64,000 bases of DNA from assembly GCF_050320075.1 (NCBI RefSeq), contig NZ_CP190018.1; one strand, 5' to 3'. This DNA comes from Escherichia coli (lineage in GTDB: Bacteria > Pseudomonadota > Gammaproteobacteria > Enterobacterales > Enterobacteriaceae). The stretch's first letter is position 1. Every line of letters begins with the position of its first letter. The position numbers and the translations under genes were made by a program. The notes beneath the pieces were generated by a model that worked only from the letters and a program-made list of their open reading frames with translations, was not told where the DNA came from and did not search any database. Positions 16,764 through 16,859 of the stretch are shown one piece after another.

Positions 16764-16778
16764 TGGTGGAGCTGGCGG
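16764..16778. repeat. attR-side direct repeat (copy of the ssrA 3'-terminal 15 nt)
   Basis: TGGTGGAGCTGGCGG is identical to 28467-28481; flanking bases partly similar (AGTT.GAA). Confidence 0.75.
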
Positions 16779-16840
16779 AGTTTGAATAAATGATGTATTG
16801 CTTTGATTTTTAATGATTTTGTTTAATTCAGTTTTTGTAC

Positions 16841-16859
16841 GTATACCTAATCGTATACC
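16841..16859. promoter_or_regulatory. GTATACC repeats near attR (candidate integrase arm-type sites)
   Basis: GTATACCTAATCGTATACC; the same heptamer recurs four times next to the int start at 28305-28352. Confidence 0.4.

What the first reader, a model, noticed from the sequence alone, without database searches (positions are those of the whole stretch)
16764..16859. Island boundaries: 15-bp direct repeat of the ssrA 3' end plus GTATACC repeats at both ends
TGGTGGAGCTGGCGG occurs at 16764-16778 and again as the 3' terminus of ssrA at 28467-28481. GTATACC heptamers occur twice near the attR copy (16841-16859) and four times in an imperfect inverted arrangement next to the int start (28305-28352). 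This is consistent with att core repeats and integrase arm-type binding sites.
Basis: seen in the sequence. Interest (0 to 1): 0.45.

Follow-up and report, generated by a model that had tools for sequence, protein, structure and literature searches.

The report
P4-like satellite prophage ends at ssrA
The repeats mark the two ends of an 11.7-kb P4-type phage satellite inserted into the 3' end of the tmRNA gene, and the GTATACC heptamers are very probably the accessory ("arm") binding sites of its integrase. This is an ordinary, well-understood arrangement.

Summary

- **Core repeat.** TGGTGGAGCTGGCGG occurs exactly twice, at 16764-16778 and at 28467-28481. The second copy is the 3' end of ssrA.
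- **Empty site.** Joining the left flank directly to ssrA gives an 800-nt sequence that is 100% identical, in one piece, to the ypjA|ssrA junction of many E. coli genomes.
- **Free attP.** A related 10.2-kb circularly permuted viral contig carries the predicted attP: both arms around a single core.
- **The element.** It is phage P4 (98.4% identical from crr to cos) carrying a different integration cassette. Its integrase is 62% identical to CP4-57 IntA and 37% identical to P4 Int. A 908-aa cargo gene sits between cos and int.
- **Arm repeats.** The CGTATACC repeats copy the layout of P4's annotated "attP arm sequence repeats". There is a tandem pair with 12-bp period on each arm and inverted copies at the int start.
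- **Covariation.** Across 79 relatives the layout is kept. The repeat word changes in concert in all copies (GGTATAC versus GGTACAC, among others). Every integrase residue that separates the two main types lies in the N-terminal arm-binding domain.

Binding itself is inferred, not shown. This is a new member of a known kind, of low interest.

The parts
16764..16778 (+). attR core: a displaced copy of the last 15 nt of ssrA. The probable crossover segment is GCTGGCGG, 16771-16778.
   Evidence: Exact repeat. The empty-site junction is 100% identical. Distal junctions of relatives share only ...ACTCCGCCAGC. CP4-57 excision transfers the delta-T of attR into ssrA (PMC10107115).
16779..16924 (+). 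P' arm of attP. It is AT-rich, belongs to the integration cassette and is not homologous to P4.
   Evidence: Megablast homology to P4 starts only at window 16925, which is the P4 crr at 4291. This arm is contiguous with the core and the P arm in the free element L084.
16840..16862 (+). Tandem pair of arm-type sites on the P' arm: CGTATACCTAAT and CGTATACCAAT, period 12.
   Evidence: (D13). The same pair lies about 62 nt from the core in 14 relatives, and an analogous pair is in K-12 CP4-57 and in P4 at 4151-4174.
16925..17060 (.). P4 crr (cis replication region) with TGTTCACC iterons. It is a single unit here.
   Evidence: 98.4% identity to P4 from 4291. P4 annotation. Strain Ec-U3 has 180 bp more here.
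17091..19424 (-). alpha primase-helicase (777 aa), part of the P4 backbone.
21219..21485 (-). vis (AlpA-family excisionase/regulator), 87 of 88 residues identical to P4 Vis.
   Evidence: P4 ORF88 annotation.
24081..24099 (+). P4 cos cohesive end, GGCGAGGCGGGGAAAGCAC. P4 homology ends at about 24106.
   Evidence: Alignment with both ends of P4.
24350..27076 (-). Cargo gene: a 908-aa P-loop (AAA_16 / STAND-like) NTPase with about 33% GC, located in the psu-int variable hotspot.
   Evidence: Relatives carry NACHT, SIR2 or other genes at this position.
27095..28282 (-). Tyrosine integrase, 395 aa, GTG start, with a Shine-Dalgarno AAGGAG at 28296-28291.
   Evidence: Pfam domains: Arm-DNA-bind_3 at 8-91, Phage_int_M at 107-198, Phage_integrase at 213-378. 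62% identical to IntA and 37% to P4 Int. R248, H337, R340, H363 and Y373 align with the same residues of P4 Int.
28305..28326 (-). Two inverted arm-type copies next to the int start. The outer copy (28305-28312) is strongly conserved. The inner copy (28319-28326) is poorly conserved in relatives.
   Evidence: The P4 equivalent is at 3915-3926.
28326..28354 (-). Candidate int promoter: -35-like TTGGTA (28354-28349), a 17-nt spacer, and -10-like TAGGAT (28331-28326). It is overlapped by the tandem arm sites.
   Evidence: The TA...T pattern is conserved across 57 distinct relatives. It falls below the consensus scan threshold. This is an inference.
28333..28355 (+). Tandem pair of arm-type sites on the P arm: CGTATACCTAAA and CGTATACCAAT, period 12.
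   Evidence: (D13).
28362..28396 (+). Four phased repeats at exact 10-bp spacing: TGGAT, TGGAT, CGGAC, TAGAC. These are candidate Vis/AlpA (directionality factor) sites.
   Evidence: Read from the sequence. P4 has the same arrangement at 3973-4007. The repeats are conserved across relatives. The function is inferred.
28399..28434 (-). Intrinsic terminator directly downstream of ssrA, supplied by the island.
   Evidence: Conserved in relatives.
28467..28481 (+). attL core, which is the functional 3' end of ssrA.
28467..28829 (-). ssrA (tmRNA, tag ANDENYALAA).

Best explanation
Window 16764-28481 is an apparently intact P4-type phage satellite prophage integrated into the 3' end of ssrA. Its backbone is phage P4 itself: crr, alpha, epsilon, the cI region, vis, ori, sid, delta, psu and cos. 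Its integration cassette (P' arm, core, P arm, int) and a cargo gene have been exchanged for those of the CP4-57/IntA lineage of P4-family tyrosine integrases.

Integration recombined a circular attP with attB at the end of ssrA. The attP layout was: int - P arm - 15-bp core - P' arm - crr. Integration left one core copy as the working 3' end of ssrA (28467-28481). The displaced original copy now lies at the far end (16764-16778). Strand exchange most probably occurs within GCTGGCGG.

The integrase is heterobivalent. Its central and catalytic domains act at the core. Its N-terminal arm-binding domain recognises the 12-bp CGTATACC units. These form a tandem pair on each arm plus inverted copies beside the int start, and together they assemble the intasome.

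The P-arm sites overlie a probable int promoter, so they would also let Int repress its own gene, as reported for P4.

Shown here: the boundaries, the empty site, the free attP, the domain content, and the conservation and covariation of the repeats. Inferred: Int binding to the heptamers, the exact crossover position, autoregulation, and the role of Vis.
For: - **Exact 15-nt repeat.** One copy is the ssrA terminus.
- **Empty site.** A synthetic empty site (16364-16763 joined to 28467-28866) matches 100% over 800 nt in one piece. 1386 genomes cover at least 80% of it. In strain 746, ypjA and ssrA are adjacent.
- **Free attP.** A circularly permuted element, L084, has int, P arm, a single core, P' arm and crr all contiguous. 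It is colinear with the reconstructed attP through the junction. Its Int is 91% identical.
- **P4 backbone.** 98.4% identity to P4 over P4 4291-11624. All P4 core genes are annotated in a 99.8%-identical RefSeq copy. cos is intact.
- **Integrase domains.** An Arm-DNA-bind_3 domain plus a catalytic domain. The catalytic residues align with those of P4 Int.
- **P4 layout.** The P4 record annotates 12-bp 'attP arm sequence repeats' in the same arrangement: one inverted copy at the int start, a tandem pair about 112 bp from the core, and a tandem pair 53 bp beyond the core. CP4-57 in K-12 has the same layout with GGGCC-type words.
- **Concerted change.** In 79 relatives the word is GGTATAC in 36 loci and GGTACAC in 29, changed in every copy. 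More distant integrases have other words.
- **Distal arms.** The distal pair matches the proximal type in 12 of 14 loci.
- **Covariation.** All 7 columns that fully separate type A from type B integrases are residues 4-76, close to or inside the arm domain mapped at 8-91.
- **Literature.** P4 Int represses its own promoter by binding DNA (Piazzolla 2006, as cited in PMC2951348 and PMC7286903).
Against: - No binding or recombination experiment exists for this integrase.
- The covariation between the arm domain and the repeats could partly reflect physical linkage. The 5' end of int and both arms are neighbours in attP. The distal-type match gives only about p = 0.04 (Fisher's exact test, my calculation from the counts).
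- Two loci (L016, L076) have mismatched proximal and distal types.
- GTATAC is a palindrome, so the orientation of some copies is ambiguous.
- The inner inverted copy (28319-28326) is poorly conserved in relatives, so it may not be a functional site.
- No promoter reached the consensus scan threshold, and no strict IHF consensus was found in either arm.
Confidence: 0.85

Rival explanations
1. The heptamers are sites for the excisionase/regulator Vis (AlpA family) or another regulator, not for the integrase.
For: They lie beside the int start and overlap a promoter-like element. P4 Vis is reported to down-regulate int (PMC2951348, PMC7286903).
Against: Vis here is 87 of 88 residues identical to P4 Vis. 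P4's repeats at the same positions are a completely different word, TGCCCCCA. The word tracks the integrase lineage and its arm domain. A separate set of 10-bp-phased CGGAY repeats is shared by P4 and this element and fits Vis better.
Confidence: 0.07
2. The P-arm repeats are only an operator for autoregulation of int and play no part in recombination. The distal pair would be a passive duplicate.
For: The tandem pair coincides with the -35 and spacer of a candidate promoter, and the inverted copies lie downstream of the -10.
Against: The distal pair is kept about 62 nt from the core in 14 relatives and in CP4-57 and P4, far from any int promoter in the prophage. It usually matches the proximal type. 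Such conservation on both arms is what an intasome requires.
Confidence: 0.05
3. The island is a fixed remnant. Its repeats would be relics that no longer support recombination.
For: Many ssrA islands of this family are cryptic, and CP4-57 excises only rarely (PMC10107115). Only 7 of 5426 E. coli genomes carry the whole element.
Against: All P4 core genes, int, cos and both att cores are intact. Strains with the same ypjA protein (WP_001551527.1) and identical 400-nt flanks have the empty site, which implies recent insertion. A related element exists in free form.
Confidence: 0.1

Closest known systems
Satellite phage P4 (X51522) and its attP
   Same: 98.4% nucleotide identity from crr to cos, and the same gene order. 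The attP plan is identical: a 12-bp arm repeat as a tandem pair on each arm, an inverted copy at the int start, and four 10-bp-phased CGGAY repeats between the P-arm pair and the core.
   Different: Int is only 37% identical. The arm word is CGTATACC rather than TGCCCCCA. The target is ssrA rather than the leucine tRNA gene that the literature gives for P4 (PMC7286903). P4's gop-beta-cII genes are replaced by one 908-aa NTPase gene. There is one crr unit rather than two.
Cryptic prophage CP4-57 of E. coli K-12 (IntA, AlpA)
   Same: The attB is the same, lying between ssrA and ypjA, with the same chromosomal flank. Int is 62% identical. The attL and attR layout is the same, including an island-borne ssrA terminator.
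   Different: CP4-57 is 22 kb and is not a P4 satellite backbone. Its arm words are GGGCC-type. Its attR copy lacks a T, so excision deletes T357 and inactivates tmRNA (PMC10107115). Here both copies are intact, so excision should restore wild-type ssrA.
CP4So of Shewanella oneidensis and other ssrA islands with P4-type integrases
   Same: These integrate at the ssrA 3' end with an attL/attR direct repeat and use AlpA-driven excision (PMC5148205; PMC10107115, Table 1).
   Different: They differ in host and cargo. Most have a mutated attR core, unlike this element.
Lambda Int arm-type and core-type site paradigm
   Same: A heterobivalent integrase with an N-terminal arm-binding domain, and multiple arm sites on both sides of the core (general description in the PMC9791396 abstract).
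   Different: The integrase subfamily, site sequence, number and spacing all differ. Binding has not been demonstrated here.

Membership tests
P4-like phage satellite | A co-located set of integrase, psu, delta, sid, alpA/vis, epsilon and alpha (the components listed in PMC8628076). | tested here: met
   98.4% identity to P4 across these genes. RefSeq annotation of a 99.8%-identical copy lists Sid, the Delta-like zinc finger protein, Psu, the derepression protein, an HTH regulator, the primase-helicase and the integrase.
P4-like phage satellite | A P2/P4-type cos site for packaging by a helper phage. | tested here: met
   The P4 right and left ends are joined at 24080/24081, with the 19-nt cohesive end intact.
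P4-like phage satellite | Mobilisation by a P2-like helper phage. | not testable with these tools
   This needs an infection or induction experiment.
P4-family tyrosine integrase (heterobivalent) | Arm-binding, core-binding and catalytic domains, with the catalytic R..HxxR..H..Y residues. | tested here: met
   Pfam PF13356, PF22022 and PF00589. R248, H337, R340, H363 and Y373 align with the same residues of P4 Int.
Site-specific island at a tRNA/tmRNA gene 3' end | A direct repeat of the gene's 3' end at the far boundary, with int next to the gene. | tested here: met
Site-specific island at a tRNA/tmRNA gene 3' end | An unoccupied site in other strains equals the flank plus a single core. | tested here: met
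   100% identity over 800 nt, and 1386 genomes cover at least 80% of the junction. Strain 746 annotation shows ypjA next to ssrA.
Site-specific island at a tRNA/tmRNA gene 3' end | The free form has both arms around one core (attP). | tested here: met
   Shown for a relative whose Int is 91% identical (L084), not for this exact element.
Integrase arm-type binding sites | Repeated words on both arms, at conserved positions, differing from the core sequence. | tested here: met
   Parallels in P4 and CP4-57.
Integrase arm-type binding sites | The word co-varies with the integrase arm-binding domain. | tested here: met
   The 7 fully discriminating columns are all residues 4-76. Linkage is a possible confounder.
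Integrase arm-type binding sites | Physical binding by the integrase N-terminal domain, and a requirement for recombination. | not testable with these tools
   This needs EMSA or footprinting and attP mutagenesis.

The most novel reading that the evidence does not exclude
The one-base difference between the GGTATAC and GGTACAC arm words, matched by a handful of arm-domain residues, may define two orthogonal integrase/arm-site specificity groups. These groups would let two elements stack in tandem at the same ssrA core and excise independently, as in Kluyvera locus L009. Separately, the 10-bp-phased CGGAY repeats shared by P4 and this element may be a common Vis/AlpA landing pad. That pad would allow whole int-att cassettes to be swapped between satellites without changing the excisionase.
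Probability: 0.3. Interest if true: 0.4.

Novelty: new member of a known kind. Interest (0 to 1): 0.2.

Why it matters
The result gives exact, experimentally usable boundaries for a P4 variant. These are the attL and attR cores, both arms, a probable crossover octamer, and the arm-site word. The variant carries an uncharacterised STAND-like NTPase in the satellite defence hotspot.

It also shows a clean cassette exchange: a P4 backbone joined to a CP4-57-lineage integration module.

Unlike CP4-57 and most P4-integrase islands at ssrA, both core copies are intact. Excision should therefore not inactivate tmRNA.

None of this changes current understanding. It is a textbook tyrosine-integrase att system.

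Tried and rejected
- **Promoter scan.** The consensus scan of 28200-28500 found no sigma-70 site at its threshold. The proposed Pint rests only on a weak 8-of-12 match and on conservation of TA...T.
- **IHF sites.** The strict consensus WATCAANNNNTTR is absent from both arms. The only relaxed hit is at 16808 on the - strand.
- **Cargo gene.** PADLOC gave only a marginal PDC-S27 hit. Pfam gave only weak AAA_16 and nSTAND1 hits. The function of the cargo remains open.
- **Third core-like match.** The match at 2783-2797 has 2 mismatches and lies on the opposite strand, so it was treated as chance.
- **P4 primary literature.** I looked for open-text primary descriptions of P4 Int and Vis footprints. 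Only secondary citations were available. Two paper searches failed on term length.
- **Phage collection.** Megablast found no phage record sharing the int-att cassette.

Full report
**Observation.** The 15-mer TGGTGGAGCTGGCGG is present at 16764-16778 and at 28467-28481, both on the + strand. The only other hit in the window has 2 mismatches and is on the opposite strand. No shuffle gave three hits. ARAGORN places a tmRNA gene (tag ANDENYALAA) at 28467-28829 on the - strand, so the second copy is the last 15 nt of ssrA. Six hits in about 400 bp beside the two cores has a Poisson probability of about 1e-13. The repeats are really 12-bp units. A 23-nt direct repeat, CGTATACCTAA[T/A]CGTATACCAAT, lies at 16840-16862 and 28333-28355. 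Two inverted copies lie at 28305-28312 and 28319-28326.

**Boundaries.** I joined 16364-16763 directly to 28467-28866 and searched 5,426 complete E. coli genomes. The 800-nt construct matches at 100% identity in one piece in many strains, and 1,386 genomes cover at least 80% of it in one place. In strain 746, ypjA is followed directly by ssrA.

I then searched IMG/VR for the predicted attP junction, meaning P-arm end, core, then P'-arm start. This found one 10,182-bp contig, L084. The contig is a circularly permuted P4-like genome whose Int is 91% identical. In it, int, P arm, a single core, P' arm and crr are contiguous. They are colinear with the attP reconstructed from the window in one alignment that runs through the junction.

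**What the island is.** The interval is 98.4% identical to phage P4 (X51522) from crr (P4 4291, window 16925) to the right cohesive end (P4 11624, window 24080). The P4 left end continues to about 24106, so cos is intact. A 99.8%-identical RefSeq copy is annotated with the primase-helicase, the derepression protein, an Icd-like protein, an HTH regulator, Sid, a Delta-like protein, Psu and an integrase.

Two segments are not P4. One is 16764-16924. The other is about 24107-28466, which holds a 908-aa low-GC P-loop NTPase gene (24350-27076) and the integrase (27095-28282). E. coli relatives keep the backbone and int but carry NACHT, SIR2 or other genes in place of the NTPase. This is the psu-int defence hotspot described for P4-like satellites (PMC9122126, PMC8628076). 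Integrase exchange among P4-like satellites is also already described (PMC8628076).

**The integrase.** It has an Arm-DNA-bind_3 domain (residues 8-91), a central domain and a catalytic domain. It is 62% identical to K-12 IntA of CP4-57 and 37% identical to P4 Int. R248, H337, R340, H363 and Y373 align with the same residues of P4 Int. A scan of one genome per species found 79 related loci across Enterobacterales and beyond, most of them beside the ssrA 3' end.

**The heptamers as arm-type sites.** The P4 GenBank record annotates 12-bp "attP arm sequence repeats". There is one inverted copy at the int start (3915-3926) and a tandem pair at 3942-3965. The core is at 4078-4097, and a second tandem pair is at 4151-4174. 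The P4 word is TGCCCCCA.

The window has the same plan. Inverted copies lie at the int start. A tandem pair with 12-bp period ends about 111 bp before the core. A second tandem pair starts 61 bp after the 15-bp core, or 53 bp after the 23-nt imperfect repeat. K-12 CP4-57 shows the same plan with GGGCC-type words at both ends.

Among the 79 relatives the plan is conserved but the word differs. It is GGTATAC in 36 loci and GGTACAC in 29, changed in every copy of an element. More distant integrases have GGCCCA, AGGCATA, GGTACC or GTAACA. Fourteen loci include a distal pair. It lies about 62 nt from a core copy and matches the proximal type in 12 of them. By my Fisher's exact calculation from those counts, p is about 0.04.

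In an alignment of 31 type-A and 24 type-B integrases, all seven columns that fully separate the types are residues 4, 11, 13, 19, 23, 57 and 76. These lie close to or inside the arm-binding domain mapped at 8-91. Linkage between the 5' end of int and the arms could contribute to this result. Linkage does not, however, explain the concerted change of all copies.

The rival reading, that Vis binds the heptamers, is unlikely. Vis is 87 of 88 residues identical to P4 Vis, yet P4's word is unrelated.

**Other features of the arms.** An intrinsic terminator for ssrA lies inside the island at 28399-28434. Between the terminator and the tandem pair are four repeats at exact 10-bp spacing: TGGAT, TGGAT, CGGAC and TAGAC at 28362-28396. 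P4 has CGGAT, CGGAC, CGGAA and AGGAC at 3973-4007, in the same place. These repeats are among the best conserved columns across 57 distinct relatives. Directionality factors typically bind direct repeats one helical turn apart (PMC7498355). I therefore propose these as Vis/AlpA sites, which is an inference.

A -35-like TTGGTA (28354-28349) and a -10-like TAGGAT (28331-28326), separated by 17 nt, overlap the tandem pair. The TA...T pattern is conserved, although the consensus scan did not report it. P4 Int is reported to repress its own promoter by DNA binding (PMC2951348, PMC7286903). The same is likely here.

**Crossover position.** Distal junctions of relatives share only ...ACTCCGCCAGC. To its left the sequence is arm-derived and differs from ssrA. 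To its right the sequence varies, and many junctions read CCGCCAGC-CCACCA with one T missing. K-12 attR has the same missing T. CP4-57 excision is reported to transfer this deletion into ssrA as delta-T357 and so inactivate tmRNA (PMC10107115). CP4So behaves the same way (PMC5148205). Together these place strand exchange within CCGCCAGC, which is window GCTGGCGG at 16771-16778 and 28474-28481.

In the window both copies carry the T, so excision should leave ssrA intact. The nearly identical element of strain Ec-U3 has the delta-T attR.

**Verdict.** The feature is a standard tyrosine-integrase att system belonging to a P4 satellite with an exchanged integration cassette. It is a new member of a known kind. 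Binding of Int to the heptamers, the promoter and the Vis sites all remain inferences.

Noticed in passing
window 28362-28396; L004 (P4) 3973-4007: Four repeats of CGGAY/TGGAT type lie at exact 10-bp spacing between the tandem arm sites and the core side. They are shared by P4 and this element even though the integrases are only 37% identical, and Vis is 87 of 88 residues identical. They are candidate Vis/AlpA binding sites that might make int-att cassettes interchangeable.
   Followed up: partly
window 24350-27076 (- strand): A 908-aa cargo ORF with about 33% GC sits in the psu-int hotspot. It has only weak AAA_16 and nSTAND1 Pfam hits and a marginal PADLOC PDC-S27 hit. The whole element is in only 7 of 5426 E. 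coli genomes. It may be an uncharacterised STAND-type defence gene.
   Followed up: partly
window 16764-16778 versus L001 (strain Ec-U3) about 1765-1778, and L085 (K-12) about 372-385: The attR core is intact here. It lacks one T in the nearly identical Ec-U3 element, in K-12 CP4-57 and in many relatives. The literature links that deletion to tmRNA inactivation on excision, so this element should excise without a scar.
   Followed up: partly
window 16925-17060; L001 about 1950-2130: The window has a single crr unit with TGTTCACC iterons. P4 has two 120-bp crr repeats. Strain Ec-U3 has 180 bp more than the window at this spot.
   Followed up: partly
L009 20300-21170: Kluyvera sichuanensis has a tandem array at ssrA. 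A type-A (GGTATAC) element is followed by a delta-T core, and then by the P arm and int of a type-B (GGTACAC) element.
   Followed up: partly
L016 about 19774-19870; L076 about 17486-17580: In two loci the proximal and distal arm-repeat types disagree (A/B and B/A). They may be hybrids formed by recombination between tandem elements. If the two types do not cross-react, such hybrids could be locked in place.
   Followed up: no
window 28399-28434 (- strand): The intrinsic terminator directly downstream of ssrA lies inside the island. Occupied and empty sites therefore give ssrA different 3' flanks. In the empty site the next hairpin is the ypjA terminator region near 16613-16640.
   Followed up: no
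window 8808-8883 and 11900-16603: The tRNA with a CAT anticodon, called Met by ARAGORN, probably corresponds to K-12 ileY (from memory, not tested). The 1567-aa ORF is annotated in RefSeq copies as the adhesin-like autotransporter YpjA/EhaD. The window is the E. coli ssrA region.
   Followed up: partly
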